Positions 1,792 to 60,132 of a stretch of DNA of 64,000 bases are shown piece after piece. The stretch spans positions 101,131 to 165,130 of the forward strand of contig CAXRDE010000005.1 of NCBI GenBank assembly GCA_964229355.1, written 5' to 3'. The position numbers were made by a program, and so were the translations under genes. Below the pieces are notes generated by a model. That model was not told where the DNA came from. It saw only the letters and a list, made by a program, of their open reading frames with translations, and did not search any database. The stretch's first letter is position 1, and every line of letters starts with the position of its first letter. The stretch is from Candidatus Sericytochromatia bacterium. Its GTDB lineage: Bacteria > Cyanobacteriota > Sericytochromatia > UBA7694.

Positions 1792-1799
1792 CTCAGCAG

Positions 1800-2852: not shown

Positions 2853-3143
2853 TTATTTACCCACATATTCTAAGGTGACTTCACCGGTAAGCTGTAGCTG
2901 ACACGCCAGACGACAACGGGGGTCATCGCTCTCCAATTCCAGAACCTCGGCTTCTTCTTCCGACAGGGGCGGCAAATGTTCAGCACCCGCCAACACCTTA
3001 ACCAGACAGGTGGCACAAATGCCCGTGCGGCACCCAAACAAAATGGGCGAGTTCATGACGTCGGCAGACTCGGACAAATATTCGCCTTCGGCCACCGTAA
3101 TGGCCGGCGCATCTTTAAAGTGCAGGGTGTGGCGCACGTTCAT
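2853..3143 (-). CDS. 2Fe-2S ferredoxin (plant/adrenodoxin-type, CxxxxC-xx-C...C)
   Basis: Start taken as MNVRHTL (ATG at 3143-3141), overlapping ATGA with the stop of 3140..4333. The longer listed ORF 2853..3347 has an implausible N-terminal extension. Motif GCRTGICATCLVKV ... CQLQL gives four Cys in ferredoxin spacing. Confidence 0.65.
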   Translation of the reverse strand: MNVRHTLHFKDAPAITVAEGEYLSESADVMNSPILFGCRTGICATCLVKVLAGAEHLPPLSEEEAEVLELESDDPRCRLACQLQLTGEVTLEYVGK

Positions 3144-4333: not shown

Positions 4334-4425
4334 GAAAGATCCTTAAGCAATTTTTACATAGCACGGCACTATATACTACAATATATCGTGAGTCCCACCA
4401 AAAAGTTGCGCTGAAAGAGGTTGGT

Positions 4426-5508: not shown

Positions 5509-5517
5509 CCCATACCC

Positions 5518-19011: not shown

Positions 19012-20457
19012 ATGGAAAGCACCCTCAGACCTGAAGATTTTCAAGCGGTGGAACACGATCTCAACGGCTTCTGGCAAGATTTCGACGAGCGCTATACCGA
19101 TATCGTACAACGCCAGCCTGTCCAAACCCTGTATGGGGGAGCCCAACTGTTCAAAGCAGATACCGCTCAAAAAATGGGGGATTTAGCCCGTAGGGCTTTA
19201 GACAGCTATGCCCCAAACTTTGTCTATTTAGCCAAAGCAGCGCGTTTAAGCATGCATGAATCACTCCCCGATGATTGGCATCAGGCCGAAGCCCTGGCAC
19301 AGTCCATTCAAGAAAACCCTGAGGCCGCAAAAAATCTAAACCCTGAAGCCTTTCTAGCCTACACCATTTATGACCGGGTACTCCACAAACTGCAAACCGA
19401 ACCCGTTGAAGACTTTCGTATTGATTTTGAAGATGGCTATGGCAACCGCCCCGATGCCGAAGAAGACAACGATGCCGTACGCAATGCCTTAGAAGTCGCA
19501 AAAGGTATGGAAGCCAATATTCTACCGCCGTTTATTGGTATTCGCATCAAGCCCTGGACCCGTCAGCTGTTTCAACGCTCCGCCCGCACCTTAGATATTT
19601 TTGTGACCGCGCTGTTAAAGGCCACACAGAACACCTTGCCACAAAACTTTGTGGTTACCCTACCTAAAGTGACTCACCCCACCCAGGTCTCTGGCCTTGT
19701 GACTTTACTCGAAAAACTCGAAAGCGCCCACCACTTACCGGACGGTAGCCTTCAACTCGAAATCATGGTAGAAACCACCCAGTCTATTTTGGATGGCCAG
19801 GGACAAGTCATGCTGCCACAGCTTTTGGCCGCTGCCAAAGGCCGTTGCCGCGGTGCTCACTTTGGGACCTATGACTATACCGCCAGCTGCAATATTATTG
19901 CCCGCTACCAGAGCATGGACCACCCGGCCTGCGATTTTTCACGACACATGATGCAGGTGGCTTTTTCGGGTACCGGCGTCATGCTTTCTGATGGTGCCAC
20001 CAATATTATGCCGGTCCCTGTACACCGTGCAGAGCCAGGCCAGGCCCTCAATTTGATTCAATTGCAAGAGAACCTTCAGGCTGTCCATAGCGCCTGGGGA
20101 CTTCACAGTGACCATATCCGCCACTCCCTTACCCATGGCCATTACCAGGGTTGGGACCTGCATCCGGCTCAGCTCATTACACGCTATGCCGTGGTTTACG
20201 ACTTCTTTTTAAGAGAGCTGAAAAATTCCACGTTGCGCTTTCAAAACTTTGTTTCAAAAGCGGCGCAGGCCACCTTAAGTGGTGATGTCTTTGATGACGC
20301 CGCCACCGGACGGGGTCTTCTCAATTACTTCCGTTTGGCGCACAATAGCGGTGCGATTAACCAACAGGAAATTGAACAGGCCGGCTTAACCCTGGAAGAC
20401 CTGAGCGGAGGCACGGGCTCAGGTGCGTCACCCTGGCTTGCCTTAATTGCAGGGTAA
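19012..20457 (+). CDS. HpcH/HpaI aldolase / citrate-lyase beta-like family protein (large, 481 aa)
   Basis: RIDFEDGYG (D-x-E-D-G) and IMVETTQSI motifs resemble CitE/HpcH metal-binding signatures. Extra N- and C-terminal regions are unassigned. Confidence 0.35.
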   Translation: MESTLRPEDFQAVEHDLNGFWQDFDERYTDIVQRQPVQTLYGGAQLFKADTAQKMGDLARRALDSYAPNFVYLAKAARLSMHESLPDDWHQAEALAQSIQENPEAAKNLNPEAFLAYTIYDRVLHKLQTEPVEDFRIDFEDGYGNRPDAEEDNDAVRNALEVAKGMEANILPPFIGIRIKPWTRQLFQRSARTLDIFVTALLKATQNTLPQNFVVTLPKVTHPTQVSGLVTLLEKLESAHHLPDGSLQLEIMVETTQSILDGQGQVMLPQLLAAAKGRCRGAHFGTYDYTASCNIIARYQSMDHPACDFSRHMMQVAFSGTGVMLSDGATNIMPVPVHRAEPGQALNLIQLQENLQAVHSAWGLHSDHIRHSLTHGHYQGWDLHPAQLITRYAVVYDFFLRELKNSTLRFQNFVSKAAQATLSGDVFDDAATGRGLLNYFRLAHNSGAINQQEIEQAGLTLEDLSGGTGSGASPWLALIAG

Positions 20458-36585: not shown

Positions 36586-37431
36586 ATGAACATCGCTATT
36601 AATCGTCAAAACACCGCAGTACAAGGCATTCGGGAACTTCGCCCGGGTATTTCTATTGAGCAGGCCGTTCAAAAAACCAAAAAAAATGGCCTTGATGAAG
36701 TTTTTTTCATGTCTCAAGGACGCGCCTATGTGGCCTATGGTGACGCCATTAATTTAAGCAATCTCAAAAAAAATGAAGTTCCTGCCGTGATGTTCAACGG
36801 CATGTCTGCAGACCTGATTGCCTTTGACGATGAAGCCAACTCAATTGCTGAAGGCGCCGCCCGTGGTGCCATTGAAGAAGTGGGCAACGCCATTGGCTTT
36901 GTGCGCACCTCTGTCGGCAATTTGGTCAAAAATGTAGGCCCCACAGCGTTTGGTGTCGCCACCGTTGGCACCATTGGCGTGGGTATTTATACCCTGTGGA
37001 AGCGATCTCAAGCCGGTGCGATAGGTCAGGCCGTGGTGAGTCAGGTGAGTCAAAAAAGCCTGAGCGCCGCCAGCGGCATACCCCTGTCTCACTTTTTGAA
37101 CGGCATGAAAATCACCGCTCTGGCCGGTTTAGCCGGCGCAGGCATTTTAGCTGCTTATGGCGCCATCAAAGGTGCTTTAGACGCAAAAGCAAACCCTAAA
37201 GATTATGCCTCCATTGCCAGTATCACCGCTGATGGCGCCTCACCCACCAACGGGGGAGCCGCTTTAAGCTGGCAGCAACTCAATGGTGAAGCCCCCATCC
37301 CCGATCAAAACACGCCCGCCCCCGCTCCTGTTACCGACGGCAGTGATAATGATATGGGTCTGGGCTTTGGCATTCAGACCCGCCCGCAGCCTGCACAAAT
37401 TCTCATGGATCCGCGATTATTGAGGCGTTAG
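36586..37431 (+). CDS. Hypothetical protein, paralog A of a tandem pair (conserved N-domain + Gly/Ala-zipper TM region + variable tail)
   Basis: About 60% identical over the N-terminal 230 aa to 37535..38461 (MNIAINRQNTAVQGIRELRPGI.../MNISINSKQIAVQGIRALRPGI...). GxxxG/AxxxA-rich predicted TM segments. Confidence 0.5.
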   Translation: MNIAINRQNTAVQGIRELRPGISIEQAVQKTKKNGLDEVFFMSQGRAYVAYGDAINLSNLKKNEVPAVMFNGMSADLIAFDDEANSIAEGAARGAIEEVGNAIGFVRTSVGNLVKNVGPTAFGVATVGTIGVGIYTLWKRSQAGAIGQAVVSQVSQKSLSAASGIPLSHFLNGMKITALAGLAGAGILAAYGAIKGALDAKANPKDYASIASITADGASPTNGGAALSWQQLNGEAPIPDQNTPAPAPVTDGSDNDMGLGFGIQTRPQPAQILMDPRLLRR

Positions 37432-37534
37432 ATCGAAAAAACCAAAAAAATCTCTGTTTTTAACCTTTTTTTAAGCAAGCTTTATTTGATCAATAACTAT
37501 AAGGATAGAGTAGACGCTTAAGAAGTAGGTTTTT

Positions 37535-38461
37535 ATGAACATATCTATCAATAGCAAGCAAATCGCCGTTCAGGGTATTCGGGCCTTACGCCCGGGCATT
37601 ACCGTGGAACAAGCCACCCAAAAAACCAAGAAAAATGGTTTGGATGAGGTTTATTTTAAGTCTGGGGGCCAATATTATGTGGCCTACGGTGATTCATTGG
37701 AATTGGGCGATCTACGTAAAAACGAAATTCCTGCCGTCATGTTCAACGGCTTACAAGCCGATATTATTACCTACGATGATGAAGTCAACTCCGTACTGGA
37801 AGGCGCTGGCCGCGGAGCCCTCGAAGAACTCAACGTGGGTATCGACTTTGTTCGCAAATCGATCGGCAGTATGATCACCCGTGTGGGGCCAACCGCCGTG
37901 GGCGCAGCTGCCGTTGGGGCAGCAGGCTTAGGTCTTTACAAACTCTGGCAAGAATCTCAAAAAATTGGAGCCATTGGGGCTTCACTGGCCGCCAATGGAG
38001 CCGCAAGCGGCACCCTCAGCATGGCCGCTGGCGCAGCCGGAGGAGGAGCATCTGCCATTCTCAACGGCATGAAAATTGCCGCTATTAGCGGTTTAGCCGG
38101 CATCGGTATCCTCGCGGGGTATGGCGCATTAAAAGGCGCCTTAGAAGCCAAAGCAGCGCAAAAAGACTATGCCTCTATTGCCAGCGTCACCGCTGACGGA
38201 GCCAGCCCCACCAACCAGGGCGAAGCACTCACCTGGCAACAACTCAATTCAAACGCCCCCGCCAACCATAACGATATGACCACACCCGTGAACACAAATC
38301 CGCCTTATAGCGCTCCTATTGTGCCCGGTGACGTGGTGAGCAACCCTGTGTTTCAAAACCCCACCTTTGGCAACTCACCTTTTGACGTGTATGCTGCCAG
38401 TTCAAAAGCCGTGGGCGCTCTCATGAATCCTTCCCAACTGCAAGCCGCTAGCCAGCGCTAA
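37535..38461 (+). CDS. Hypothetical protein, paralog B of the tandem pair
   Basis: See paralog A; the C-terminal tail diverges (Pro/Asn-rich). Confidence 0.5.
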   Translation: MNISINSKQIAVQGIRALRPGITVEQATQKTKKNGLDEVYFKSGGQYYVAYGDSLELGDLRKNEIPAVMFNGLQADIITYDDEVNSVLEGAGRGALEELNVGIDFVRKSIGSMITRVGPTAVGAAAVGAAGLGLYKLWQESQKIGAIGASLAANGAASGTLSMAAGAAGGGASAILNGMKIAAISGLAGIGILAGYGALKGALEAKAAQKDYASIASVTADGASPTNQGEALTWQQLNSNAPANHNDMTTPVNTNPPYSAPIVPGDVVSNPVFQNPTFGNSPFDVYAASSKAVGALMNPSQLQAASQR

Positions 38462-38484
38462 GCCGACAGCAGCACACAAAAACC

Positions 38485-39303
38485 TTAAGTGGGCGAAGAG
38501 TCCAGAGGCTGAGATGCGCTCGCTTTTTCAGGTTCACTGTTTGCCGTCTCAGGGGGAAGCTCAATCTCCGTAAAATGCCGCCGCATATGCTGTAAAATCG
38601 CCTGGGCGTTCACTGCAGCCTTTTGATACACCGGTGCCAGGGCCTCGTTTAAACGTTTGCGGGAAATGCGACCCGGCATGGCATCTAAGCTTGCCAATGG
38701 CGAAGCCTGAGCCTCATCTAAGATTTCAGTTTCAAAGGCCCGCTTAATGCCCCAATACTCATGGGGTTGCTGACGCAAAGGCACTTCCGGTAACGTCGAA
38801 AGCGGCTGGTGCATGGGCTCATCCACTTCAACTCCTTGCAGCTTAAACAAAAGCAACGGATCTGCGTCCATGAACTCAGCCAATAGACAACAGACGGCGG
38901 CCATATGCTTGCAAGGCACCGTCCAATCAGGACACGAACAATCCATGCTCATATGTACATCAGGACTTGGAAAAAAGTGGGCACCCGCCTCTTCAAAACG
39001 CTGTTGCCACTCCAGGGGGATATCGGTCTTGAGCATTTCACTGTGGTTTTGAATCAATTGCTGAATGAGCAATTGTTGTCCCCGGGGGTAGGGGGCAAAC
39101 ACAATCGTCACGGTATAAGGGTTGATGCGGCTGCCGCGCACCTCTGCCTGCACCTGATTTTCTTGAATACGAAAATCTTTGACGTTACCCTGTTTGGCAT
39201 AAATTTCGCCCCGAAGCATCCGCTCTGGCTCTGACTGGGCGATACGTGATAACCATTGCCGAGACCACCAACGTCGTCCAAAACTTTGTAAGGGTGCAAC
39301 CAT
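38485..39303 (-). CDS. SWIM zinc-finger protein (YwqB-like partner of SNF2 helicase)
   Basis: C-x-C-x(n)-C-x-H SWIM signature in MDCSCPDWTVPCKHM. Stop abuts the SNF2 gene. Confidence 0.7.
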   Translation of the reverse strand: MVAPLQSFGRRWWSRQWLSRIAQSEPERMLRGEIYAKQGNVKDFRIQENQVQAEVRGSRINPYTVTIVFAPYPRGQQLLIQQLIQNHSEMLKTDIPLEWQQRFEEAGAHFFPSPDVHMSMDCSCPDWTVPCKHMAAVCCLLAEFMDADPLLLFKLQGVEVDEPMHQPLSTLPEVPLRQQPHEYWGIKRAFETEILDEAQASPLASLDAMPGRISRKRLNEALAPVYQKAAVNAQAILQHMRRHFTEIELPPETANSEPEKASASQPLDSSPT

Positions 39304-42314: not shown

Positions 42315-42694
42315 TAAGAGTTCAAACGACGACGTATTTCTGCTTGTTGTGACAAGGTGGCATCCAATTGTTCCTGGGTGCAAAAGCCCAGTTCAATCAA
42401 GGCTTCTCCAAGGGGTATTTCGCGGGTGACATGACAGCTTAAGGCTTCTATCAATTGCTCACGGGAAATCACGCCCCCCTGAATCAACAGGTTACCCAAC
42501 CGGGTGGTACGGCGTACCTGTTGACGTTTATGGTAAAAACTTTCCACCAGAGGACGCGCGGGCTGCCCATTGATCAAGGTATCGGCACTCAACACACCAA
42601 TATCATCTAAAGCATAGGCAACCAGTTCGTCTGCTGTGGCACCAAAGGCGCTAAAATCAGCCAGGGCTAAATGTTCAATACAAACCTGGCTCAT
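42314..42694 (-). CDS. Stand-alone MshEN-domain protein (predicted c-di-GMP receptor)
   Basis: Tandem 24-aa motifs RLGNLLIQGGVISREQLIEALSCH and PLGEALIELGFCTQEQLDATLSQQ separated by a 5-aa spacer (VTREI) fit the RLGxx(L/V/I)(L/V/I)xxG(L/V/I)(L/V/I)xxxx(L/V/I)xxx(L/V/I)xxQ x2 MshEN signature. ATGA overlap with the upstream gene and TAATG coupling to SNF2. Confidence 0.6.
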   Translation of the reverse strand: MSQVCIEHLALADFSAFGATADELVAYALDDIGVLSADTLINGQPARPLVESFYHKRQQVRRTTRLGNLLIQGGVISREQLIEALSCHVTREIPLGEALIELGFCTQEQLDATLSQQAEIRRRLNS

Positions 42695-44814
42695 CGCACG
42701 TTAAAACTCACGCGATGGGTCGAGGTGTTGCCCATGCGATCCGTGGCTTTCACCACAAGCATGTGTTGCCCCTTAGCCGGACGCTTCATTTTCAAAAGAA
42801 AGCTCTCTTCACGGCCATCAATGATTTTATCCACAGACTGCACAAAATCGCTTTGTTGGCCATCTAAAATCGTTTCTACATACGCCAGGGCAGACAGCTG
42901 ATCTTTAGCCTCAAAGCGCACTTCCACATGATCTTGTTTAACCGTTGCCTGCAGGCCGGAAACCGTCGGCACGGTATTATCAATGGTCATCAGCTCACTG
43001 TCGCGATACACCCGATAGCTCTCGCCGGGATTTGATAAAGCATCGCTGGCATAGACACGGAAGCGGTAGTTTCCATCGGATAAGGTGCTGGAGTCAAACG
43101 AATAGATGGGCTGAGTCAGATCTTTGGCGAGCGGTACCCATTCGGTCTGACCATACGCTTGGTAATACACATCAAAGGTCAGCCGATCTTCATTGGCATC
43201 TTCGCTGTCCCAGGCCACAGTCAACATGCCCTGTTTAAAATCTTGCAGCATACGGATCTCACTGCTGGACTTTTCTTCGAGCATCTGAGCGTAAACAGAT
43301 TCTGTACTCTGGGGTTGACGCAGGCTTTGCAGTACACGGGGTTCTAGCTGGACGACCCGTGGGGCTTCCGGTTTGCCATAGGTGTGGGGTTTAAAGAAAA
43401 TACCGCGGTCCAGGAAGTATACTTCATGCACAATAGGTGCGAGATTGTCTCGCACATAGTTGACCTCAAAACTTTTAAGCTGTGGTGTTCGCTGGGCACT
43501 ATTGCTCTGCAGTTCAAATTTGGCCTGCAGAAAGCGACCCGCAGGCGAAGTAATGGGGACTTCTGTGCCGGTTTTAAAGGCACTCCAGTCACTCCAGGTA
43601 TTATCAGGGGTGGCTGTATTTCCGGTACGGGTGGCCACGCGAATTTGCGTCCCTGATGGCACCACAGCCTGCAGTCGCAAAAGGCCCCAGGAAGCTGAAA
43701 TACCAGCACTCATAACATCACTTTCATAAATTCCCGTCCGTAAAAAGCCGCCTTCATAACGGTCAATGCGCGCGGGACTGCTTCCAAAACTTAAAAAGCC
43801 GTCATTGGCGGCAGCGGCGATCAAAAGAGACACCTGATCAGAGGCAGAGCGCGTGGCCAGGCTTAACTCCCGCACTTCCGGGTTTTCCGGCTGGTAAATC
43901 TTGTAGATGCGCCCGGCGTTGCCCGTGCCCACAAAAAGGTCACCGGCTTTGTTGAGCGCGAGTGTGTTGGCGGTTTCGTTATCCAGGGGAAACAACAGTT
44001 CAGAATGTCCCTGGCGATCAATACGAAAGACCGCACTTTTGGCACGGCTTTTATCTGCTGCAGAGCGGTTTAAAGCCACAAAGAGATCGCCCTTACCATT
44101 GCCGGTGATGGCTGTCACCTCGTCAAAGTCGGCATCTAGAAGCGCACGGGCCTTGTCTTTGCGTTCGTATTGATAGACAATGCCGCGGCTGCCGCCGCCA
44201 AAAACCATGCCCCAATGGGGGTCTTCGTAGAGCGCGCGCAGATTGTTTTCTTTAGACTGGTACAACAATTCAGCACTATCGCCTTGAAGGCGGTAAAGGG
44301 CGCCGCGGTTGCCGGTGGTAAAATAAACTTGCCCGTCTTTAGCGGGCAAAATATTCCAAATGTACTGTTCTTTGGCCTGAAAAATCGGCTTGAGCCCGCT
44401 TTTGTCGCCCTTGTAAAGGCGGCCGTCGGGAGCACTGGCGGCATACAAGCTGCCATCTTTGCCCTTCGCCACGGCGGACACAAACCCCTGAGGTAAATCC
44501 AGAATGGTTTTTTCGCTACCCGACTCTCCAAGGCGCACAATCATTGCTGATCCTGGTTTTGCAGTAGCCACAAGCATTTCATTGGCATTCAGAGGAACAG
44601 CGTCCATGATGTTATTGGCCGTTAACTGATTGCGTTCTTCGAAGGCCGAGCTCAGGGTTAATGAACCGTCAGACTGAATGGCTGTGGAAACCAGAGCTCC
44701 ATTCAAAAAGTCTCTCACACCTTCCACATACCAGTTTTTAGGAAACTCAGCATGGGCGGGAAACGTTAGGCTTGCCGCTAACACCGCACCAAATACGCTT
44801 TTTATCTTCATCAT
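42691..44814 (-). CDS. Secreted beta-propeller (Reg_prop-like repeats) plus Y_Y_Y-like domain protein without kinase module
   Basis: Signal peptide. Repeated G.LY/FV..G motifs (GSLYAASAPDGRLY, GQVYFTTGNRGALY, GDLFVGTGNAGRIY). C-terminal NYRFRVYASDALSN resembles the Y_Y_Y domain of hybrid two-component periplasmic sensors. Confidence 0.5.
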   Translation of the reverse strand: MMKIKSVFGAVLAASLTFPAHAEFPKNWYVEGVRDFLNGALVSTAIQSDGSLTLSSAFEERNQLTANNIMDAVPLNANEMLVATAKPGSAMIVRLGESGSEKTILDLPQGFVSAVAKGKDGSLYAASAPDGRLYKGDKSGLKPIFQAKEQYIWNILPAKDGQVYFTTGNRGALYRLQGDSAELLYQSKENNLRALYEDPHWGMVFGGGSRGIVYQYERKDKARALLDADFDEVTAITGNGKGDLFVALNRSAADKSRAKSAVFRIDRQGHSELLFPLDNETANTLALNKAGDLFVGTGNAGRIYKIYQPENPEVRELSLATRSASDQVSLLIAAAANDGFLSFGSSPARIDRYEGGFLRTGIYESDVMSAGISASWGLLRLQAVVPSGTQIRVATRTGNTATPDNTWSDWSAFKTGTEVPITSPAGRFLQAKFELQSNSAQRTPQLKSFEVNYVRDNLAPIVHEVYFLDRGIFFKPHTYGKPEAPRVVQLEPRVLQSLRQPQSTESVYAQMLEEKSSSEIRMLQDFKQGMLTVAWDSEDANEDRLTFDVYYQAYGQTEWVPLAKDLTQPIYSFDSSTLSDGNYRFRVYASDALSNPGESYRVYRDSELMTIDNTVPTVSGLQATVKQDHVEVRFEAKDQLSALAYVETILDGQQSDFVQSVDKIIDGREESFLLKMKRPAKGQHMLVVKATDRMGNTSTHRVSFNVR

Positions 44815-44824
44815 GTCTATACCT

Positions 44825-46681
44825 CTAATTAATCACCCTGCCCACAGGGGTCACAAAGACCCGAACAGCTTGTTGACCTTGCAAATCATAAGCCACGGGA
44901 ACACTGTACTCTGTACCGGGAGAGCGCATTAAGGGTACCGTACTGCTCAGGTTGGCTGCATTATCTAATTGTTCAATCACCGAAGGGGGCATTTTAGCAT
45001 AAAGCTGACTGTCCATGGTAATGCCTGGAGACTCAGCAATCCACTTCAGGTACAAGCGCTGGGGCTCACGCTCCACGGCCAGGTCCGATAAAAGCTCGGC
45101 GTAGCTTGCATACCCCGTTTTAATACCCGCTTCGAGACGCTGAAGTGAAGCTGCATCACTGGCCAATAGCGTCATGGGGCCGTAAGCCGCATCTTCAGGC
45201 ACTTGTACCCGCAGATGACGTACCAGGGTTTCATTGCGATAGGTTTTTAGGCGCACATGCACCCCCACGCTTTCACCCGGTTTGACTTCACTGCGATCCG
45301 CCCAAATGGCATCAATGGCAGCAATGCGCGTCTGGGGAGCCAGCTGATAATTCAAGGTGATTTTTTCGATAGAAGGGCTTTGAAAGGGGTTGGCCCACAC
45401 TTGAAAAAGCTTGCTGGCCACACTCTGGGCTGCCAGTTGCGCCGCGCTCTGGGTCGGGGTAGTGGAATAATAGCCCGTCAAGGGTAGCTCCCGACCGTCC
45501 ACTTTGGCAGTACCCGAAGCTTTGATATTGCCGCCGAGATTAAACTGCAAGCGGTCACTCAAACTGTTTTGAATACCCATGGCCAGTAGCATGGGGGTGT
45601 AACTGGGATCTTGAAACACCTCAAAATTGACCTGAGTCAGGTCCACGCCAGTGCTATCCTGAATGTTAATGTGTACGGGAATCATCCGGGTGTGTAAACC
45701 GTTGGTGCCCGCAATCGCCGTCAGGCGATCCTGGGTAATGGTTCCAACTTCGCGGCCATCTTCAGCCATTTTGTAGGAACCCATTTCAGAGACCAGAATA
45801 TGGTGTACATAAGCAGTGGCCATGGGCATGCGCACATTACCGGCACCAAAGAAGGGGTGTCCAAAGGCCAGCACCTTATCGCCATCCACGTACGATACCG
45901 TGCCGGTACCGGATATGGAAATATCCCCGCGGACCATCTGCCCGGCAATCGCTCCTCCCATTTCCAGCTTATCGGGCGCTTCAGGGTGGCCCTTCCAGCC
46001 GCCTGAGCTACCCATCACCGCGTGAAACCCCATTTTCTGGAGCTGGGGTTGATAGGTGGCAAAGACATCGGGTGAAATCCCACTAATGGTGACGGGGGTG
46101 GCGATGGGTTGAAAATCTAAGGAACGCCCCTGAAATTGGACCTGACCCGAGGCCAGGAGTGGGTTTTGCGGGGTCGTAGCAGCATTGGCAGGTTGGTAAA
46201 CCTGCTGTGCTGGCAGGGCTGGCTGTTCGGGAATAGCAAACAGCTTCAACATATCTTGAATGGGGGTAATGCCCGCAATGGGCACTTTGGTAAAGGAGCC
46301 AAAGCGATAGGACAGAGCGCCAATGAGCTGGCCATCAATGTAACAGGGGCTTCCGCTCATGCCTGAGACAACCCCGGTATATTCCGCTTTGGGTCCAGAG
46401 ATTTGAGCCAGGTAAACATCAAGTCCAGGCCCGAGCATGCCCTTCATGTTTCCCAGAATCTCAAAGGCAAAAGGCTCAATCTTTGTGCCCTGAAAAACCG
46501 TTCGACATTCCCCTTTCATACCCCGTTGCACCTGAGATTGAGGTCTTAAGACTTCTTTCGCCTGCGCAGGACGGGGGGTGTGATTTACAGCGCATAAACT
46601 CAATGTCAATGCAAAAAGGAAAGTCTGCTTGAACATGCACGGCTCTTTTCCAAAAAAGTTTCTCTTCAGTTTAGCATACAA
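44825..46681 (-). CDS. Secreted serine peptidase with SpoIVB (S55)-like active-site motif
   Basis: GVVSGMSGSPCYIDGQLIGAL closely resembles the SpoIVB GMSGSPI..G..IGA catalytic Ser region. Signal peptide present (start may be the internal MFKQTFLF). The rest of the protein is unassigned. Confidence 0.45.
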   Translation of the reverse strand: MYAKLKRNFFGKEPCMFKQTFLFALTLSLCAVNHTPRPAQAKEVLRPQSQVQRGMKGECRTVFQGTKIEPFAFEILGNMKGMLGPGLDVYLAQISGPKAEYTGVVSGMSGSPCYIDGQLIGALSYRFGSFTKVPIAGITPIQDMLKLFAIPEQPALPAQQVYQPANAATTPQNPLLASGQVQFQGRSLDFQPIATPVTISGISPDVFATYQPQLQKMGFHAVMGSSGGWKGHPEAPDKLEMGGAIAGQMVRGDISISGTGTVSYVDGDKVLAFGHPFFGAGNVRMPMATAYVHHILVSEMGSYKMAEDGREVGTITQDRLTAIAGTNGLHTRMIPVHINIQDSTGVDLTQVNFEVFQDPSYTPMLLAMGIQNSLSDRLQFNLGGNIKASGTAKVDGRELPLTGYYSTTPTQSAAQLAAQSVASKLFQVWANPFQSPSIEKITLNYQLAPQTRIAAIDAIWADRSEVKPGESVGVHVRLKTYRNETLVRHLRVQVPEDAAYGPMTLLASDAASLQRLEAGIKTGYASYAELLSDLAVEREPQRLYLKWIAESPGITMDSQLYAKMPPSVIEQLDNAANLSSTVPLMRSPGTEYSVPVAYDLQGQQAVRVFVTPVGRVIN

Positions 46682-52096: not shown

Positions 52097-53452
52097 ATGT
52101 TGAGTCGTCGCTATTGGAGTCAATCTACCCTTTCATTGTGTACTACCCTGGGATTACTCAGTGTGATCAGCAGTTGTGGAGACAATAAACAACCACCACC
52201 GGTGGGAGCCATTAACGGTCAAATTCCCGGTGCGCTGCAACCCCTACCCGGCACCGATCCCAATTTTGTAGACCCCAATTTCGTTGATCCCAACTTTGTC
52301 GACCCCAATGCCCCTTACGACCCTGCCCTGGATGCAGGTATTGACGCGGGTGTGGGTGTGAACCCGGGTACCCCGACTGATCCGGGCCTTACGGACCCAG
52401 GTGTGGATCCTGGCGCAGACCCCGGAAGCGATCCAAACTTCAACCCGCCTGACACAGGGGCCGTTGGTGAAGATGTACCCGGTGGTGAAGCCCCTGTGGG
52501 TGGAGATAACCCCTATATCGGCGACGCCCCTGACGACGGTAGCGATTTACTGGGTGACAGCGGCGATTTGCCTGACTTAGGAGGCGACGTCTTTGGCAGT
52601 GAGCCACCTGCCGCAGACCCCAGCAAAGGAAATACGTTTCTGGGCATTGTCAAAAACCCCAAAGTGAATTATCTGAGCGGTTTAGCCAGCAGTGGCAATC
52701 AGATTTACATGGGTCATTACAATGACGGCATCATAAACAATGACCGCTATATCCGCAGTTTTAATCTGGGCGATGGCACCACCAATGACGTGAGTATCTA
52801 CAGTCAGTTTCGCGATGGTGATAACCCTACCCGTCTCATTGCGGGCGTGAGTATTGCCAACGGTGAGCTGTGGGCCACCCTCAATGAACCCGACGGCAGT
52901 GGCTTTAACGTTTTTCGTTATAGCAGTTCAGGCACAAAAATTAAAACCTATAGCGTGGGCCAGGCCGGCCTGGGAGATATCGCCGTCGGTGGCGGTAAAG
53001 CCTTTATTGCCAGTCCCGCCGATCAAGGGGTGGTGAGCTTAGATATTCAAAGCAGTCAGGCCAACCTGATCAGCTCAGGATCTCCCGCTGGCCTCGGCGT
53101 CGACGGCAGCGGTAATGTATGGGTTACCGTCAACGGAGAAATTGTTCAATACAATGGCAGCACGGGCAATGAAATGCTCCGCTTTAATGGCGCAGGGAAA
53201 AACGGAAGTGGTAAAGCCATTTCAAACATCGGAGACGTGGCTGTAGACCCCAATAACGGCGATGTGTACGTGGTTTCTGGCTCTGGCCCAGGCACCGTTA
53301 TTGCTCGCTACGACTCCCGTGGTAACTATATTCACAGCTTTGGTAATTCGAATTTAAGCAGCCCCAAAGGACTCGCCATAGGCTCCAATGGACACCTCTA
53401 TGTCAGCGACAGTCAACTGGGTGCAGTGATTGCCTTTGATGCTGGAAAATAA
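52097..53452 (+). CDS. Lipoprotein with DPNFV tandem repeats, low-complexity acidic linker and C-terminal NHL/beta-propeller-like repeats
   Basis: Lipobox ISSCG; C-terminal repeats such as GLAIGSNGHLYVSDSQLGAVIAFD. Confidence 0.5.
   Translation: MLSRRYWSQSTLSLCTTLGLLSVISSCGDNKQPPPVGAINGQIPGALQPLPGTDPNFVDPNFVDPNFVDPNAPYDPALDAGIDAGVGVNPGTPTDPGLTDPGVDPGADPGSDPNFNPPDTGAVGEDVPGGEAPVGGDNPYIGDAPDDGSDLLGDSGDLPDLGGDVFGSEPPAADPSKGNTFLGIVKNPKVNYLSGLASSGNQIYMGHYNDGIINNDRYIRSFNLGDGTTNDVSIYSQFRDGDNPTRLIAGVSIANGELWATLNEPDGSGFNVFRYSSSGTKIKTYSVGQAGLGDIAVGGGKAFIASPADQGVVSLDIQSSQANLISSGSPAGLGVDGSGNVWVTVNGEIVQYNGSTGNEMLRFNGAGKNGSGKAISNIGDVAVDPNNGDVYVVSGSGPGTVIARYDSRGNYIHSFGNSNLSSPKGLAIGSNGHLYVSDSQLGAVIAFDAGK
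52256..52309 (+). repeat. 15-nt tandem repeat x3.6 (encodes DPNFV x3.6)
   Basis: gatcccaattttgta / gaccccaatttcgtt / gatcccaactttgtc / gaccccaat. Confidence 0.8.
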
Positions 53453-56422: not shown

Positions 56423-56950
56423 ATGATAACCAGCCTTCCTCAACTGGCCCGCGAAAGTTTAGCCACCTATCTTCAAACCCAACATCTTCTACAGCTTTCC
56501 CCGCAGGACTGCAGCCCCGCACTGGCCAGTTTTTTTACCACGTCAGCGGGAGCCTTTGTCACCCTAAAAACGGGGGGACACCTACGCGGTTGTATCGGAA
56601 CGATCACCCCCACACAGCCCCAGGTGATACAGGAAGTGATCATCAATGCCTGTGCAGCGGGCACCCGTGACCCCCGATTTCCTGCCGTAAGTCCAGAGGA
56701 GTTAGACCGTTTAAGCTATAGCGTCTCCGTTATGCATCCTCCTGAAGCGATTACAGACGTCACCCAGCTCGATCCTCAGCGTTATGGTGTTATTGTAAAA
56801 TCCGGTCAGCGACAAGGTTTGTTACTGCCACAGTTGGACGGTATTCACCACGTCGAACAGCAAATCTTCCATGCCCGTCAAAAGGCGGGCATTCCACCCA
56901 ATGCTCCCCTTGCATTATCACGCTTTCAAGTGGACTTTTATGAGGAATGA
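56423..56950 (+). CDS. AMMECR1-domain protein
   Basis: LRGCIG signature motif and overall size. Confidence 0.8.
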   Translation: MITSLPQLARESLATYLQTQHLLQLSPQDCSPALASFFTTSAGAFVTLKTGGHLRGCIGTITPTQPQVIQEVIINACAAGTRDPRFPAVSPEELDRLSYSVSVMHPPEAITDVTQLDPQRYGVIVKSGQRQGLLLPQLDGIHHVEQQIFHARQKAGIPPNAPLALSRFQVDFYEE

Positions 56951-57015
56951 CCAGCCTGAATTCCTGTGATATAATGAAAAAACACGCTATTACCACCCGA
57001 AATTAGAGGTTACCC

Positions 57016-58749
57016 ATGGGACTCCTGAAAGCGGCGGACGCCGAATATTTATTACTTGATGATGAACTGCCTACGCAAAGTATGGCCTTGCGAAGCCAGG
57101 AAGATGGCCCCCCAGAGTACGAAATGTCGGGTCCTATCATCATTGGCGGTTCAGGCGTCCTTGAGCTCGAAGACCTTGACCTCAGTCAGTACACCAGCGA
57201 TGACGGCGTTTTTTTTACGGCCGCCACCACAGAGATCACCTTTGGTGAAGCCGTTACCATTGGTGGCAGTCGCACCGCGGTAGAAGAGCCCGAAGAATAT
57301 ACATCCTACGACAGCTTCGCCAACGAAGAAGACGAATACGGGGCCTTGCCTGATTACGGGACCGAGTACGATTTACCCCTGGAGGAGGAGTTTGTCGACG
57401 AGGATCCCAACCAGGAACCCGCTGCCATCAAAGACTTCTCTAAACTTTCAAGCATCGGTAATGAAGACGACGAGCAGGGCGCTGCTGCCTGGGCCGATAG
57501 CCAACGCACGAGCATGATGACCCGTCTGGACGACAAAGTTCGCCAGATGATGAACGAACAGGGCAGCGTTTTCAAACAACAATCGAAGGAACAGCTCTCT
57601 TTCGTCTCTGCCGAAGAGAAAAACCGCCTCGTCTCTGAGGCCATGGAGACGCTCCGCCACAATCCCCAGGCCGAGTCTCTGGATTTTGAAAAAATCTTTC
57701 AGGATATTGCGGACTACATTGAAAATCTGGCCTGGCATCACACTGAAAAAATCCATGAAGACATGGAAGCTGAACGGGCACAAAGCTTAGCCACCATTGA
57801 AGAATACGTCGAAAACTCCATCAACGAACAACGCGAACAAATGATGATGGAAGCCCAGGAGTACATCTCGAAAACCGTTCAGGAGTACAAACAGTCCCTC
57901 ACCGAAGACAACGAATATATTAAGGCCGCCAACCAAATCATTGCAGACCGCGAAAATATTCTTAACGAAGCTTACGAAAAATCCTTGCTCATGGTACAAG
58001 AGGCCGAAACCGAGCACGGACGCATCATGGAAGACGCCCTGATGCAACAGCAACAGGCAGAGCAGACCCTTCAGGAGGCAGAAGCCCAGGTGGAGCTTAT
58101 GGCCCAGGAAGCCCAGGCCGAAGCGGAACGTATTCTCTCTGAAGCCAATATGGAAGCCGCCCGCATTATTGAAGCCGCCGAACAATCTCACCAGGAGATT
58201 GTGGAAGCTGCCACTCAGGATGGTTTCAACGTGGGTTACCAGGAGGGCCGCGAAGAGGCCATCAAAGAAAATGCCCAGTTGCTCATGGAGACCACCAACG
58301 CTCTCAACAAGCTCCACGCTGCGTTCCCTGTAGCGGTCAAACAAAATGAAGACAAGCTGATCAAATTGGCCCTCGAAATCTCTCGCGAAGTCATTCAAGA
58401 CGAACTGGCCATGAAGCCCGAAATCGTTCTCAAAAACGTGGAGCGCGCCATTGGCAAGGTGTCAGACCTCGAGAAAGTCTTAATCAAGGTCAACCCGCTG
58501 GATCTGGATATGATTCTGCCCAAACAAGAGTACTTCAAAAAGTTGCTGCCTGACGTTCAAGACTTTGTTATCACCGGTCACTACTCCATTGAGCGGGGCG
58601 GTTGTACCATTGAAACCAACTCGGGCACCATTGATGCCCAGGTCAACACGCAGCTGGCGGTTGTGGAAGAGGTCTTCCAACAGATTCGCGCCGAGTATGA
58701 CTTTGACGATGACGATGACGATGACATGAATGAAGAGGATGAAATCTAA
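57016..58749 (+). CDS. FliH/SctL-like type III ATPase regulator with very long acidic, coiled-coil N-terminal extension
   Basis: C-terminal about 130 aa (KVLIKVNPLDLDMIL...YSIERGGCTIETNSGTIDAQVNTQL) matches the FliH/HrpE C-domain pattern (GGC.IET..G.IDA....QL). N-terminal 400 aa is D/E/Q-rich, with a poly-Asp tail. AGAGG RBS. Confidence 0.5.
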   Translation: MGLLKAADAEYLLLDDELPTQSMALRSQEDGPPEYEMSGPIIIGGSGVLELEDLDLSQYTSDDGVFFTAATTEITFGEAVTIGGSRTAVEEPEEYTSYDSFANEEDEYGALPDYGTEYDLPLEEEFVDEDPNQEPAAIKDFSKLSSIGNEDDEQGAAAWADSQRTSMMTRLDDKVRQMMNEQGSVFKQQSKEQLSFVSAEEKNRLVSEAMETLRHNPQAESLDFEKIFQDIADYIENLAWHHTEKIHEDMEAERAQSLATIEEYVENSINEQREQMMMEAQEYISKTVQEYKQSLTEDNEYIKAANQIIADRENILNEAYEKSLLMVQEAETEHGRIMEDALMQQQQAEQTLQEAEAQVELMAQEAQAEAERILSEANMEAARIIEAAEQSHQEIVEAATQDGFNVGYQEGREEAIKENAQLLMETTNALNKLHAAFPVAVKQNEDKLIKLALEISREVIQDELAMKPEIVLKNVERAIGKVSDLEKVLIKVNPLDLDMILPKQEYFKKLLPDVQDFVITGHYSIERGGCTIETNSGTIDAQVNTQLAVVEEVFQQIRAEYDFDDDDDDDMNEEDEI

Positions 58750-60132
58750 GTGGGAAACTTAGCTTACGCACAGGGCGTTGACGAATCTTACGAGCATTAT
58801 TTTGACTACCAAAACTACCAGGTCGTCCTCAATAACACCAATCTGATTCGCGCCAAAGGCTCTGTGGTTCAGGTGGTCGGTCTGGTGCTTGAGGCACTGC
58901 TTCAGGGCGTCGAGATCGGTGAACTGTGTTTTATTCGTTCTGCAGACCGCAAACGCACCTATCCGTGCGAAGTGGTGGGCTTTCGTGCCCGCCGCGTTCT
59001 CCTCATGCCGCTGGCAAACCTTGAAGGAATTGGTGCCGGTGCAGAAGTTATTGCCACCGGTAAACAGGTCTCCGTCAAGTGCGGCCCCGGCCTGCTGGGC
59101 CGTGTACTGGATGGTCTGGGGAACCCTATCGACGGGAAAGGCCCCATTGTCGCTGAAAAATACTACCCCTTGCGAGCCCCTGCGCCCAACCCCATGAAAC
59201 GGAAACGGATCGATACCGTTATGCCCACCGGGGTACGTGTGATTGACGGAATGCTCACCTTTGGCGCAGGCCAACGGGTCGGCATGTTCGCCGGTTCAGG
59301 GGTTGGTAAATCGACGCTGTTGGGTGCCATTGCCCGAAACGCCAAAGCGGATATCGCTGTGGTCTGTAACGTGGGGGAACGGGGCCGGGAAGTTCTGGAA
59401 TTTATTGAAGATAACTTAGGTGAAGAAGGCATGGCACGGGCCGTGGTTATTTCAGCTACCTCTGATACCTCTTCGTTGGAACGGGTAAAAGCCGCCTATA
59501 CCGCCACAGCAGTCTGCGAGTACTTCCGAGATCAAGGCAAAAACGTCTTCTTAATGATGGACTCTGTAACCCGATTTGCCATGGCACAGCGGGAGATCGG
59601 GTTGGCCATCGGTGAACCCCCTGCTACCAAAGGGTACACCCCTTCGGTATTTGCCCTGTTGCCTGAGCTTTTAGAACGCACCGGGATGGGAGAAACGGGT
59701 TCAATTACGGCCCTTTACACCGTACTGGTGGAAGGGGGTGATATGGACGAGCCTGTTGCTGACGCAGTTCGAGGTATCTTAGATGGCCACATTGTAATGA
59801 GTCGTAAAATTGCCTCAGACAACATTTACCCCGCCATTGACATTCTTCCCAGCGTTAGCCGTCTCTTCAACGCCCTCACCACCCCTGAACATCAGGCTGC
59901 GGCTTCAGAAGTACGCAATATTCTGTCCACTTATGAAAGCGCGGTGGACCTGATTAACATCGGGGCTTATGTACGCGGTAGTAACGCCGATATTGACCAT
60001 GCCATCTCGATGATTGACCAGATCAAGAGCTTCCGCAAACAGGGCGTTAACGATCCGACCCCCTTCCAGGATACCGTCAACGCCGTCAAGCAGCTAGGAA
60101 CCAAAACCGCCAGTTGGGCGAACCTCGCTTAA
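58750..60132 (+). CDS. fliI: Type III secretion / flagellar export ATPase (FliI/SctN family)
   Basis: GTG start overlapping previous stop (TAAGTG) with GAGGA RBS. Walker A GSGVGKST, Walker B LLMMDSVTR, and the overall F1-like ATPase pattern. Confidence 0.85.
   Translation: MGNLAYAQGVDESYEHYFDYQNYQVVLNNTNLIRAKGSVVQVVGLVLEALLQGVEIGELCFIRSADRKRTYPCEVVGFRARRVLLMPLANLEGIGAGAEVIATGKQVSVKCGPGLLGRVLDGLGNPIDGKGPIVAEKYYPLRAPAPNPMKRKRIDTVMPTGVRVIDGMLTFGAGQRVGMFAGSGVGKSTLLGAIARNAKADIAVVCNVGERGREVLEFIEDNLGEEGMARAVVISATSDTSSLERVKAAYTATAVCEYFRDQGKNVFLMMDSVTRFAMAQREIGLAIGEPPATKGYTPSVFALLPELLERTGMGETGSITALYTVLVEGGDMDEPVADAVRGILDGHIVMSRKIASDNIYPAIDILPSVSRLFNALTTPEHQAAASEVRNILSTYESAVDLINIGAYVRGSNADIDHAISMIDQIKSFRKQGVNDPTPFQDTVNAVKQLGTKTASWANLA

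What the first reader, a model, noticed from the sequence alone, without database searches (positions are those of the whole stretch)
57016..60132. Orphan FliH-FliI (type III secretion ATPase complex) pair with a giant acidic FliH
A FliI/SctN ATPase (Walker A GSGVGKST) is translationally coupled (TAAGTG) to a 577-aa protein. The C-terminal about 130 aa of that protein match the FliH/SctL fold signature, but its N-terminal 400 aa are an extreme D/E/Q-rich coiled coil with a DDDDDDDMNEEDEI tail, twice the size of typical FliH. No fliF/G/J, flhA/B or injectisome genes flank it; neighbours are AMMECR1, ferredoxin, CorC and SDH. This points to a degenerate or repurposed type III ATPase module or a widely dispersed flagellar regulon.
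Basis: partly seen in the sequence, partly recalled or inferred. Interest (0 to 1): 0.6.

Follow-up and report, generated by a model that had tools for sequence, protein, structure and literature searches.

The report
Displaced flagellar FliH-FliI pair, giant FliH
This is the export-ATPase module (FliH plus FliI) of a flagellum in a non-photosynthetic cyanobacterium (Sericytochromatia), a group that scatters its flagellar genes around the chromosome. It is not an orphan or decaying remnant; its one unusual feature is a FliH 2.5 times the normal length, with an acidic extension found only in this group.

Summary
ORF 57016-58749 is a 577-aa FliH-family protein (23% D/E, net charge -89). ORF 58750-60132 is an intact FliI/YscN-family ATPase that starts with GTG directly after the fliH TAA. 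No other flagellar, chemotaxis or injectisome gene lies in the 64-kb window.

The "orphan, degenerate or repurposed" reading is not supported.
- Both genes are under strong purifying selection (dN/dS about 0.01-0.04).
- The ATPase groups with flagellar FliI of Margulisbacteria, Firmicutes and allied phyla (bootstrap 100), not with SctN.
- The lineage is Candidatus Sericytochromatia. One MAG that carries the same long FliH also carries a flgG-A-H-I-J / sigma / flgB-C / fliE-F / flhA cluster on another contig.
- Related contigs place motAB, cheW or cheR within 5 kb of fliH.
- fliG sat beside fliH in 0 of 17 Sericytochromatia-type loci, against 46 of 56 loci from other lineages.

The roughly 330-aa N-terminal extension is conserved across the family and absent from the other 1.84 billion representative proteins searched. 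This is a lineage-wide variant of FliH in a dispersed flagellar regulon.

I could not check the window's own genome for the remaining flagellar genes.

The parts
56947..56975 (+). Sigma-70-type promoter-like site ATGACC-17 nt-TATAAT with a TG extended -10, in the 65-bp gap between AMMECR1 and fliH. A Shine-Dalgarno-like AGAGG follows at 57005-57009.
   Evidence: 10 of 12 matches with TG, the best site in the region. The number of sites in the region is not above chance (5 found, 5.7 expected); the core TTCCTGTGATATAATGAAA is identical in L001 although synonymous sites between the two genomes are saturated (dS 1.5-1.9). Function is inferred.
57016..58749 (+). fliH: 577-aa FliH-family protein, the stator/tether of the export ATPase, with a lineage-specific N-terminal extension.
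   Evidence: PF02108 77.6 bits; NF005198 136.7 bits, below its 200 cut-off; the best fold matches are the FliH chains of 5b0o; 90 homologues, and all named ones are Sericytochromatia, Blackallbacteria or Cyanobacteriota.
57016..57420 (+). FliH aa 1-135: acidic, predicted disordered region. It begins with the family-wide motif M-G/L-L-L-K-A..Y and contains two short conserved IGG motifs (aa 41-47 and 80-86).
   Evidence: pLDDT below 50; K5 and G77 nearly invariant; motif present in both long and short forms; dN/dS 0.18: looser, but still selected.
57421..57936 (+). FliH aa 136-307: helical part of the extension, with no counterpart in canonical FliH.
   Evidence: helices 134-145, 152-193, 199-215 and the start of 224-399; aa 1-307 hits only 15 proteins among 1.84 billion representatives, all from this family.
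57937..58464 (+). FliH aa 308-483: long helices (the end of helix 224-399, then 404-466 and 468-483) corresponding to the dimerising stalk of FliH. Includes the AxxxGxxxGxxxG glycine repeat at aa 399-411 (nt 58210-58248).
   Evidence: dN/dS 0.009 for aa 224-400. G407, E410 and G411 are invariant.
58465..58713 (+). FliH aa 484-566: C-terminal alpha/beta domain, by homology the FliI-binding domain.
   Evidence: Pfam FliH aa 425-548; strands 487-541; 5b0o FliH; most invariant columns lie here.
58699..58746 (+). Acidic C-terminal tail DFDDDDDDDMNEEDEI.
   Evidence: A short acidic tail occurs across the family; the poly-Asp run occurs only in close relatives of the window.
58747..58752 (+). TAA-GTG junction: the fliH stop codon abuts the fliI start codon, with GAGGA 9-13 nt upstream.
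   Evidence: The same zero-gap junction occurs in L001 and in L004/L005. Translational coupling is inferred.
58750..60132 (+). fliI: 460-aa flagellar-type type III export ATPase. Walker A at nt 59293-59316, GERGREV at 59374-59394, Walker B at 59551-59580, T3SS_ATPase_C at 59878-60090.
   Evidence: TIGR01026 594.2 bits against a 379.5 cut-off; Salmonella FliI 5b0o_A, 400 bits; tree; motifs.

Best explanation
The two genes encode the cytoplasmic ATPase module of a flagellar type III export apparatus in a Candidatus Sericytochromatia bacterium.

By homology, the FliH C-terminal domain binds the N-terminus of FliI, the long helices dimerise, and FliH2-FliI complexes assemble into the FliI ring beneath the FlhA export gate. 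FliH tethers this ring to the C ring. The ATPase helps load and unfold rod, hook and other axial substrates.

The pair looks orphaned because this class has broken up the ancestral fliE-fliF-fliG-fliH-fliI cluster. Basal-body, gate, switch, stator and chemotaxis genes sit in separate small units elsewhere in the genome.

The roughly 330-residue acidic extension is a conserved innovation of the class. It consists of a disordered head with a conserved N-terminal motif, followed by about 170 extra helical residues. I infer that it lengthens or elaborates the FliH tether, with the conserved N-terminal motif as the candidate C-ring (FliY/FliN) contact.

Shown: gene identity, intact motifs, purifying selection, flagellar-type phylogeny, lineage-wide displacement, and flagellar genes in relatives. 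Inferred: physical assembly, translational coupling, promoter use, the role of the extension, and the presence of the remaining genes in this particular genome.
For: Identity:
- Searches give the FliH and FliI/YscN family matches.
- the closest solved relative is Salmonella FliI.
- the best fold matches are the FliH chains of 5b0o.
- Walker A and B, the catalytic Glu motif and the GxxxG repeat are all present.

Functional constraint:
- fliI has dN 0.020 and dS 1.50. FliH aa 224-577 has dN/dS below 0.01.

Phylogeny:
- Sericytochromatia FliI are monophyletic (bootstrap 100).
- They are nested with flagellar FliI of Margulisbacteria, Saganbacteria, Firmicutes, Armatimonadota and Eremiobacterota (100).
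- YscN, HrcN, RhcN and Spa47 fall outside.
- the nearest relatives outside the class (59-62% identity) are all annotated as FliI.

Dispersed regulon:
- MAG LF-bin-346 (JACMPN01) has FlgG, FlgA, FlgH, FlgI, a rod-binding protein, a FliA-like sigma factor, FlgB, FlgC, FliE, FliF and FlhA (FHIPEP, 861 bits) on contig 445. There is no fliH or fliI there.
- Its long FliH (P0040, H7338_14990) is on another contig. The tie between the H7338 locus tags and JACMPN01 rests on matching contig lengths.
- L012 has bona fide FliM, FliY, CheY, FliA, CheC and CheD beside the family-specific axial-protein array.
- motA-motB lie 4.3 kb from fliH-fliI in L053 and L054. CheW lies 5 kb from the pair in L039, whose FliI is 92% identical to the window's and which keeps the AMMECR1-fliH-fliI-CNNM synteny. 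CheR and CheW lie next to fliH in L047.
- fliG is adjacent to fliH in 0 of 17 Sericytochromatia-type loci and in 46 of 56 loci from other lineages, using the same method.

Extension:
- it is conserved across about 90 homologues.
- it is found nowhere else.
Against: - No other flagellar gene lies in the 64-kb window, and the rest of this organism's genome could not be read.
- The exact FliH protein is not on record in the collection.
- Both proteins fall below every NCBIfam equivalog cut-off: FliI_clade2 601.2 against 629.8, and FliH NF005198 136.7 against 200.
- In about 0.6 Mb of Sericytochromatia-type loci I found no FliJ, full-length FliG, FlhB, FliP/Q/R or flagellin. This is a small sample of the genomes.
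- The taxon of L012 (FliM/FliY) is inferred from 60% identity of its axial paralogues to those of the named MAG.
- FliH and FliI are about 1 Mb apart in one 5.18-Mb genome, so the tight pairing is not universal.
Confidence: 0.8

Rival explanations
1. Relic or repurposed module. This particular organism has lost the flagellum and keeps FliH-FliI for another job, as Chlamydia keeps flagellar-type FliI, FliH, FliF and FlhA copies without a flagellum. An example would be powering some other secretion or cytoskeletal device, with the acidic extension as the new interface.
For: - No flagellar gene lies within 57 kb upstream or 4 kb downstream.
- The local synteny is with housekeeping genes and is kept in L001 and L039.
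- The promoter looks sigma-70-type, not sigma-28-type.
- The extension has no known homologue.
Against: - The same displaced arrangement occurs in relatives that do have basal-body, gate, switch, stator and chemotaxis genes.
- The basal-body cluster of MAG LF-bin-346 lacks its own fliH and fliI, so the displaced pair is the only visible candidate to serve it.
- L039, with FliI 92% identical and the same synteny, has cheW 5 kb away.
- Purifying selection is as expected for a working FliI.
Confidence: 0.1
2. Non-flagellar type III secretion (injectisome-like) ATPase complex, SctL-SctN, belonging to a cryptic secretion system.
For: - SctN and SctL models also score well: TIGR02546 at 582 bits, and NF004968 HrpE/YscL at 76.6 bits.
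- Identity to YscN (50.5%) is higher than to E. coli FliI (45.7%).
- Some database names call relatives 'EscN/YscN/HrcN'.
Against: - In the tree the protein groups with flagellar FliI of Terrabacteria-type phyla at bootstrap 100, and SctN falls outside.
- All SctN equivalog cut-offs are missed.
- The associated genes in relatives are flagellar-specific: FlgH and FlgI L/P rings, FlgA, FlgB/C/G, FliE, FliM, FliY with a CheC domain, MotAB and FliA.
- No secretin, needle or translocon gene was seen.
Confidence: 0.03
3. Part of an atypical, flagellum-derived machine. The apparatus is real but structurally divergent, with an unusually long FliH tether and perhaps a filament built from the greatly expanded FlgE/G-like axial proteins. 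On this reading 'ordinary flagellum' understates what the pair serves.
For: - FliH is 2.5 times the canonical length, with about 260 helical residues.
- At least 14 loci of one FlgE/F/G-like family occur in a single MAG.
- A seven-gene tandem array of the family occurs in L011/L012.
- A 96%-identical twin pair sits next to Maf and nonulosonic-acid genes, and a TPR-GT41 glycosyltransferase sits next to another copy.
- No flagellin was hit in the Sericytochromatia loci read, although the same E. coli FliC query found flagellins in other lineages' loci.
Against: - Only a small fraction of any genome was read, so flagellin may simply lie elsewhere.
- The structure models are of low confidence (pLDDT 60-64).
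- Multiple rod/hook paralogues and glycosylation islands are not in themselves proof of a new filament.
Confidence: 0.2

Closest known systems
Salmonella / E. coli FliH-FliI (structure 5B0O, FliH2-FliI complex)
   Same: - C-terminal FliH domain, GxxxG glycine repeat and helical stalk.
- FliI with the N-terminal barrel, the Walker motifs and the T3SS_ATPase_C domain.
- fliH immediately upstream of fliI.
   Different: - E. coli FliH is 228 aa; this one is 577 aa.
- It has about 330 extra N-terminal residues and a net charge of -89.
- It is only 22.6% identical over the shared part.
- It is not embedded in fliE-fliF-fliG-fliH-fliI-fliJ.
Flagellar FliI 'clade 2' (TIGR03497) of Firmicutes, Margulisbacteria and Saganbacteria
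   Same: - Best-scoring equivalog model (601 bits).
- 58-61% identity.
- Groups with them at bootstrap 100.
   Different: - Misses the curated cut-off (629.8).
- Sericytochromatia form their own long branch.
- The N-terminus is about 20 residues longer.
Borrelia burgdorferi FliH 'spokes' linking the FliI hub to an enlarged C ring (PMC6248999)
   Same: [quoted passage not shown] That paper links longer spokes to a larger cytoplasmic ring.
   Different: Nothing is known here about C-ring size. The tie between the extension and tether length is my inference. The acidic disordered head has no described counterpart.
Chlamydia flagellar-type FliI, FliH-like, FliF and FlhA genes in a non-flagellated bacterium (my own recollection, not checked here)
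   Same: FliI/FliH-type genes lying away from any flagellar cluster.
   Different: The Sericytochromatia lineage does carry L/P-ring, rod, MS-ring, gate, switch and stator genes, so the pair is displaced, not orphaned.
Injectisome SctL-SctN (YscL-YscN, HrcL-HrcN)
   Same: Homologous two-gene module. sctL lies immediately upstream of sctN in Ralstonia and Bradyrhizobium.
   Different: The tree places SctN outside the clade that holds this protein. The accompanying genes in relatives are flagellar.
Peripheral stalk subunits of V/A-type ATPases (subunit E) and the F1 alpha/beta subunits
   Same: Remote fold similarity of FliH to subunit E and of FliI to F1-beta (29% identity). This is the long-recognised deep homology.
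   Different: The T3SS_ATPase_C domain and the FliH Pfam domain place the pair firmly in the type III branch.

Membership tests
FliI/YscN-family type III export ATPase (TIGR01026) | Whole-protein score above the curated subfamily cut-off | tested here: met
   594.2 bits against a cut-off of 379.5.
FliI/YscN-family type III export ATPase (TIGR01026) | Domain set: N-terminal beta-barrel, RecA-like nucleotide-binding domain, T3SS ATPase C-terminal domain | tested here: met
   PF02874 26.3 bits, PF00006 287.6 bits, PF18269 85.7 bits, all above their cut-offs.
FliI/YscN-family type III export ATPase (TIGR01026) | Walker A, Walker B and catalytic glutamate motifs intact | tested here: met
   GSGVGKST aa 182-189, LMMDSVTRFA aa 268-277, GERGREV aa 209-215.
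Flagellar FliI (as opposed to injectisome SctN) | Score above an NCBIfam FliI equivalog cut-off | tested here: not met
   FliI_clade2 601.2 against 629.8; clade1 569.7 against 619.1; clade3 537.5 against 587.45. The miss is narrow, as expected for a divergent lineage.
Flagellar FliI (as opposed to injectisome SctN) | Phylogenetic placement among flagellar FliI | tested here: met
   NJ tree, 437 columns, 100 bootstraps. The protein groups with FliI of Margulisbacteria, Firmicutes and allies at 100, and SctN sequences fall outside. The method is simple and the sample small.
Injectisome SctN | Score above the SctN equivalog cut-off, or clustering with SctN | tested here: not met
   TIGR02546 582.3 against 604.75. 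It does not cluster with YscN, HrcN, RhcN or Spa47.
FliH/SctL family | C-terminal FliH domain (PF02108) above the gathering score | tested here: met
   77.6 bits against 24.1, aa 425-548.
FliH/SctL family | Score above an NCBIfam FliH or SctL equivalog cut-off | tested here: not met
   Best is NF005198 at 136.7 against 200; TIGR03825 scores 96.5 against 148.9; TIGR02499 (SctL) scores 45.8 against 78.7.
FliH/SctL family | Glycine (AxxxG/GxxxG) repeat followed by a helical stalk and a globular C-domain, with fold similar to solved FliH | tested here: met
   ATQDGFNVGYQEG at aa 399-411. Foldseek's top three matches are the FliH chains of 5b0o (E 7e-5, probability 1.00). The model's mean pLDDT is only 64, but 80-92 across the helices.
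FliH/SctL family | Gene immediately upstream of the ATPase gene | tested here: met
   Zero-gap TAA-GTG junction. FliI is directly downstream of fliH in 12 of 17 related metagenome loci.
FliH/SctL family | Binding of the FliI N-terminus, dimerisation, and binding of FliN/FliY through the N-terminus | not testable with these tools
   Needs complex modelling or biochemistry. Only single-chain prediction was available.
Bacterial flagellum (system-level membership) | Export gate, MS ring, rod, L/P rings, switch and stator genes in the same genome | not testable with these tools
   Only 64 kb of this genome is available, and none of these genes is in it. Relatives were tested. MAG LF-bin-346 has FlhA, FliF, FliE, FlgB, FlgC, FlgG, FlgH, FlgI and FlgA plus the long FliH. 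L012 has FliM and FliY. L053 and L054 have MotAB beside fliH-fliI.

The most novel reading that the evidence does not exclude
Sericytochromatia may build a structurally unusual flagellar machine. Two observations point that way. The giant FliH, with about 260 helical residues and a 135-residue acidic disordered head, would form tethers far longer than in any imaged motor. This implies either an oversized or re-organised cytoplasmic ATPase/C-ring assembly or an extra docking platform. Separately, the FlgE/G-fold axial-protein family is massively expanded: at least 14 loci in one MAG, tandem arrays, and copies next to Maf, nonulosonic-acid and TPR-GT41 glycosylation genes. These proteins might supply the filament in place of flagellin.
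Probability: 0.2. Interest if true: 0.7.

Novelty: new variant of a known kind. Interest (0 to 1): 0.38.

Why it matters
Flagella in the cyanobacterial phylum have been discussed for Melainabacteria. My three searches of the held papers found nothing on flagellar or type III genes in Sericytochromatia. These results indicate that this uncultured sister class of the oxygenic cyanobacteria carries flagellar basal-body, export-gate, switch and stator genes, in a fragmented layout, and so probably a flagellar system. They also reveal a FliH with a large, conserved, lineage-restricted extension.

This bears on how flagellar gene order decays, and on how far the FliH tether can vary, which makes it a target for cryo-ET and complex modelling. 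It also matters for annotation. A 'lonely' fliH-fliI pair should not be read as a remnant or a secretion system without checking the lineage.

Tried and rejected
- Exact look-up of the window FliH returned nothing on record, so the source contig could not be extended.
- A genome-collection scan with the single FliM of L012 found no relative. The repeat scan with an alignment of the axial-protein family worked.
- I tried to tie the window's closest relative (P0004, 363-kb contig) to an axial-protein gene of the same assembly through cluster records. No accessions were held.
- tblastn of 120 FlgE/F/G-like proteins against the window gave no hit.
- Three literature searches for Sericytochromatia with flagella, type III secretion or motility turned up nothing specific.
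- I considered a V/A-ATPase stalk (weak AhaH hit; subunit E fold hits). This is the known deep homology, not membership.
- I considered DivIVA/Scy-like coiled-coil proteins (E about 1e-4). These are compositional coiled-coil matches.
- I considered SctL-SctN. The tree and the associated genes in relatives reject it.
- I considered a functional link to the neighbours AMMECR1, CNNM and ferredoxin. That synteny holds only in close relatives (L001, L039) and is absent in L003, L004, L006 and L053.
- My first gene call in L014 (5573-7495, minus strand) was a shadow ORF. The real gene there is fliF on the plus strand.


Full report
**What is at the locus**

The sequence at the junction reads GAA ATC TAA GTG GGA, so the fliH stop codon abuts the fliI start codon.

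The first protein:
- It matches Pfam FliH (PF02108) at aa 425-548 with 77.6 bits against a cut-off of 24.1.
- NCBIfam FliH and SctL models align over aa 308-557, but all score below their equivalog cut-offs. The best is NF005198 at 136.7 against 200.
- E. coli FliH (228 aa) aligns at aa 30-215 to aa 360-546 of this protein, at 22.6% identity and E 2.5e-10.
- The FliH-typical glycine repeat is present as ATQDGFNVGYQEG at aa 399-411.
- The canonical part is therefore the last 220-250 residues, and roughly 310-330 residues are extra.
- The protein has 133 D/E against 44 K/R, a net charge of -89 and a pI of 4.1.

The second protein:
- It has the three domains of a type III ATPase.
- It passes the FliI/YscN subfamily model, 594 bits against 379.5. 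It narrowly misses both the FliI_clade2 equivalog (601 against 630) and the SctN equivalog (582 against 605).
- It keeps Walker A, Walker B and the GERGREV motif.
- Its best solved relative is Salmonella FliI (5b0o_A, 400 bits).

**Surroundings**

I scanned about 50 ORFs across the whole window against Pfam. I also searched the window by tblastn with 50 flagellar and chemotaxis reference proteins from E. coli and from Sericytochromatia loci. Only fliH and fliI were hit.

The neighbours are RecJ, a phosphoribosyltransferase, RelA/SpoT, an NHL-repeat protein, PBP1, ferredoxin and AMMECR1 upstream. CNNM/CorC, saccharopine dehydrogenase and TrkH lie downstream.

The 65-bp gap before fliH holds ATGACC-17-TATAAT with a TG extended -10 and an AGAGG ribosome-binding site. 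The core of this site is identical in a relative whose synonymous sites are saturated. Promoter function is inferred. No convincing terminator separates fliI from the CNNM gene.

**Which organism**

About 90 homologues of the long FliH exist, 416-646 aa long. Every one that carries a source name is Candidatus Sericytochromatia, Blackallbacteria or 'Cyanobacteriota'. This is the non-photosynthetic sister class of the oxygenic cyanobacteria.

L001, a 363-kb contig, has the same gene order as the window, with FliH 88% and FliI 98% identical.

**Is the pair decaying?**

No. Against L001, fliI has dN 0.020 and dS 1.50 (ratio 0.013), and fliH has dN 0.073 and dS 1.90 (ratio 0.039). FliI has the lowest dN of the eight genes compared.

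Within FliH, aa 224-400 and aa 401-577 have ratios below 0.01. The disordered head, aa 1-135, has 0.18. Synonymous sites are saturated, so the ratios are approximate. The ranking is clear all the same.

**FliI or SctN?**

The nearest proteins outside the class are 59-62% identical. All are annotated as flagellar FliI, from Margulisbacteria, Saganbacteria, Armatimonadota, Eremiobacterota and Firmicutes.

I built a neighbour-joining tree from 437 columns with 100 bootstraps and an F1-beta outgroup.
- The Sericytochromatia proteins are monophyletic (100).
- They sit inside the clade of those FliI proteins (100).
- E. coli FliI joins next (83).
- YscN, HrcN and RhcN form a separate group (80).
- Spa47 is outermost.

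The higher raw identity to YscN (50.5%) than to E. coli FliI (45.7%) reflects the divergence of proteobacterial FliI. It does not indicate an injectisome affiliation. The tree is simple and sparsely sampled.

**Is the regulon elsewhere?**

The rest of this genome cannot be read with the tools, so I tested relatives.

First, the 5.18-Mb contig ERZ21878443 contig_1.
- FliH sits at 1.09 Mb and FliI at 0.09 Mb.
- At least six FlgE/F/G-family genes sit at 1.10, 1.42, 2.17, 4.10 and 4.82 Mb.
- Two of them lie beside a Maf glycosyltransferase and nonulosonic-acid genes.

Second, a scan of 185,579 species genomes with an alignment of that axial family.
- It returned 14 loci, all in one MAG, 'Candidatus Sericytochromatia bacterium LF-bin-346' (JACMPN01).
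- Matching contig lengths tie this MAG to locus-tag prefix H7338, and hence to the long FliH P0040, which is 545 aa.
- Its contig 445 (L014) encodes, in order:
  - FlgG (C-terminal part);
  - FlgA, FlgH (130 bits) and FlgI (409 bits);
  - a rod-binding FlgJ-like protein and a FliA-like sigma factor;
  - FlgB-like and FlgC-like proteins, then FliE;
  - FliF, 32% identical to E. coli FliF (E 2e-54);
  - FlhA (FHIPEP, 861 bits; 41.5% identical to E. coli FlhA);
  - one of the axial paralogues.
- No fliG-fliH-fliI follows fliF there.

Third, contig L012.
- It carries seven tandem axial paralogues that are 60% identical to those of LF-bin-346.
- It also carries FlgG, a rod-binding protein, FliM (319.5 against a 219.6 cut-off), FliY (314 against 218), CheY, FliO (below its cut-off), FliA/WhiG (257 against 189.6), CheC and CheD.

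Fourth, a metagenome scan with the FliH alignment, which gave 73 loci.
- I applied one reference set to all of them. fliG lies next to fliH in 46 of the 56 loci with canonical short matches, most of them full fliE-fliF-fliG-fliH-fliI clusters. It lies next to fliH in 0 of the 17 Sericytochromatia-type loci.
- In those 17, fliI follows fliH directly in 12. FliH stands alone in two (L043, L047), as it does in L003.
- motA-motB lie 4.3 kb from the pair in L053 and L054.
- CheR and CheW flank the lone fliH of L047.
- L039 keeps the AMMECR1-fliH-fliI-CNNM synteny of the window, with FliI 92% identical. It has a CheW gene (114.7 bits) 5 kb upstream.

Taken together, the class has a flagellar system whose genes are scattered. 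The displaced fliH-fliI unit is its ATPase module.

**The extension**

The whole family is acidic, with net charge from -47 to -97. It shares the N-terminal motif M-G/L-L-L-K-A/G...Y and a short acidic C-terminal tail. A subclade of 416-432 aa has a shorter version.

A search with aa 1-307 against 1.84 billion representative proteins returned 15 hits. All were members or fragments of this same family.

The AlphaFold model has a mean pLDDT of 64.
- It is poor for aa 1-135.
- It reaches 80-92 along the helices. It shows a disordered head, helices of lower confidence at 134-215, one helix from 224 to 399, another from 404 to 466, and the alpha/beta C-domain.
- Foldseek's best matches are the FliH chains of the Salmonella FliH-FliI complex, followed by V-ATPase subunit E.

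Established work assigns the FliH C-domain to FliI binding, a central region to dimerisation, and the N-terminus to FliN binding. It also shows FliH as spokes between the FliI hub and the C ring (PMC6248999).

My inference is that the extra helical residues and the conserved N-terminal motif lengthen or elaborate this tether. At 0.15 nm per residue, a straight 176-residue helix would span about 26 nm. That is close to the roughly 30-nm radius of the large Borrelia C ring described in that paper. The stalk may therefore fold back, reach a different partner, or belong to an enlarged assembly. This is untested.

**Verdict**

The 'orphan, degenerate or repurposed' interpretation is not supported, and the 'dispersed regulon' alternative is supported for the lineage.

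FliI is an ordinary new member of flagellar FliI. FliH is a lineage-restricted variant with a large, conserved extension of unknown role.

The main gap is that the window's own genome could not be searched for the remaining genes. Beyond that, FliJ, full-length FliG, FlhB, FliPQR and flagellin were not seen in the roughly 0.6 Mb of Sericytochromatia-type sequence I could read.

Noticed in passing
L011/L012 8940-15786 (L011 coordinates); L013-L026; L008 9188-10786; L027 10001-12922: Sericytochromatia hold a greatly expanded family of 250-325-aa FlgE/F/G-like axial proteins. There are at least 14 loci in one MAG, a seven-gene tandem array, and a 96%-identical twin pair next to Maf and nonulosonic-acid genes. 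A further copy sits next to a TPR-GT41 glycosyltransferase in Blackallbacteria-type contigs. The model has terminal helices and a beta-rich middle, and its best fold matches are Salmonella FlgG and FlgE, not flagellin. Multi-copy genes beside glycosylation genes is the pattern usually seen for flagellins, and no flagellin was found in the loci read.
   Followed up: partly
L003 10001-11641 and L006 10001-11395 (ENA ERZ21878443 contig_1, 5.18 Mb): In this genome fliH and fliI are about 1 Mb apart, and each stands alone among unrelated genes. FliH also stands alone in L043 and L047. The tight fliH-fliI coupling seen in the window is therefore not universal in the class.
   Followed up: partly
L014 5630-7540: The FliF ORF (636 aa) of MAG LF-bin-346 has a FliG middle-domain hit at its C-terminal end (aa 561-632, 30.3 bits against a 25 cut-off). 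flhA follows with no room for a full fliG. This could be a natural FliF-FliG partial fusion, a frameshift, or an assembly error.
   Followed up: no
L007 11239-16612: A 5.4-kb stretch with no called gene lies directly after a 412-aa FlgE-like gene in the 5.18-Mb genome. I did not inspect it.
   Followed up: no
window 52097-53452: A secreted-looking 451-aa protein with a short tandem repeat (DPNFV three times) and a Pro/Asp/Gly-rich region, followed by NHL/beta-propeller repeats. It is conserved next to RelA in L001.
   Followed up: no
window 1066-7216: A cluster of oxygenase-type genes: a fatty-acid hydroxylase, two Rieske proteins, a weak AurF-like di-iron hit, a ferritin-like protein and one ORF with no family. 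It may be a lipid- or metabolite-modifying cluster.
   Followed up: no
window 36586-39303 and 42691-46681: Three consecutive ORFs of 272-308 aa have no Pfam match, next to an SNF2 helicase with DUF3670. Two large ORFs (707 and 618 aa) have only sub-threshold Ig-like or S55-peptidase hits.
   Followed up: no
window 19012-20457: A 481-aa DUF6986 protein (552 bits) with a weak malate-synthase TIM-barrel hit lies directly upstream of SfsA.
   Followed up: no
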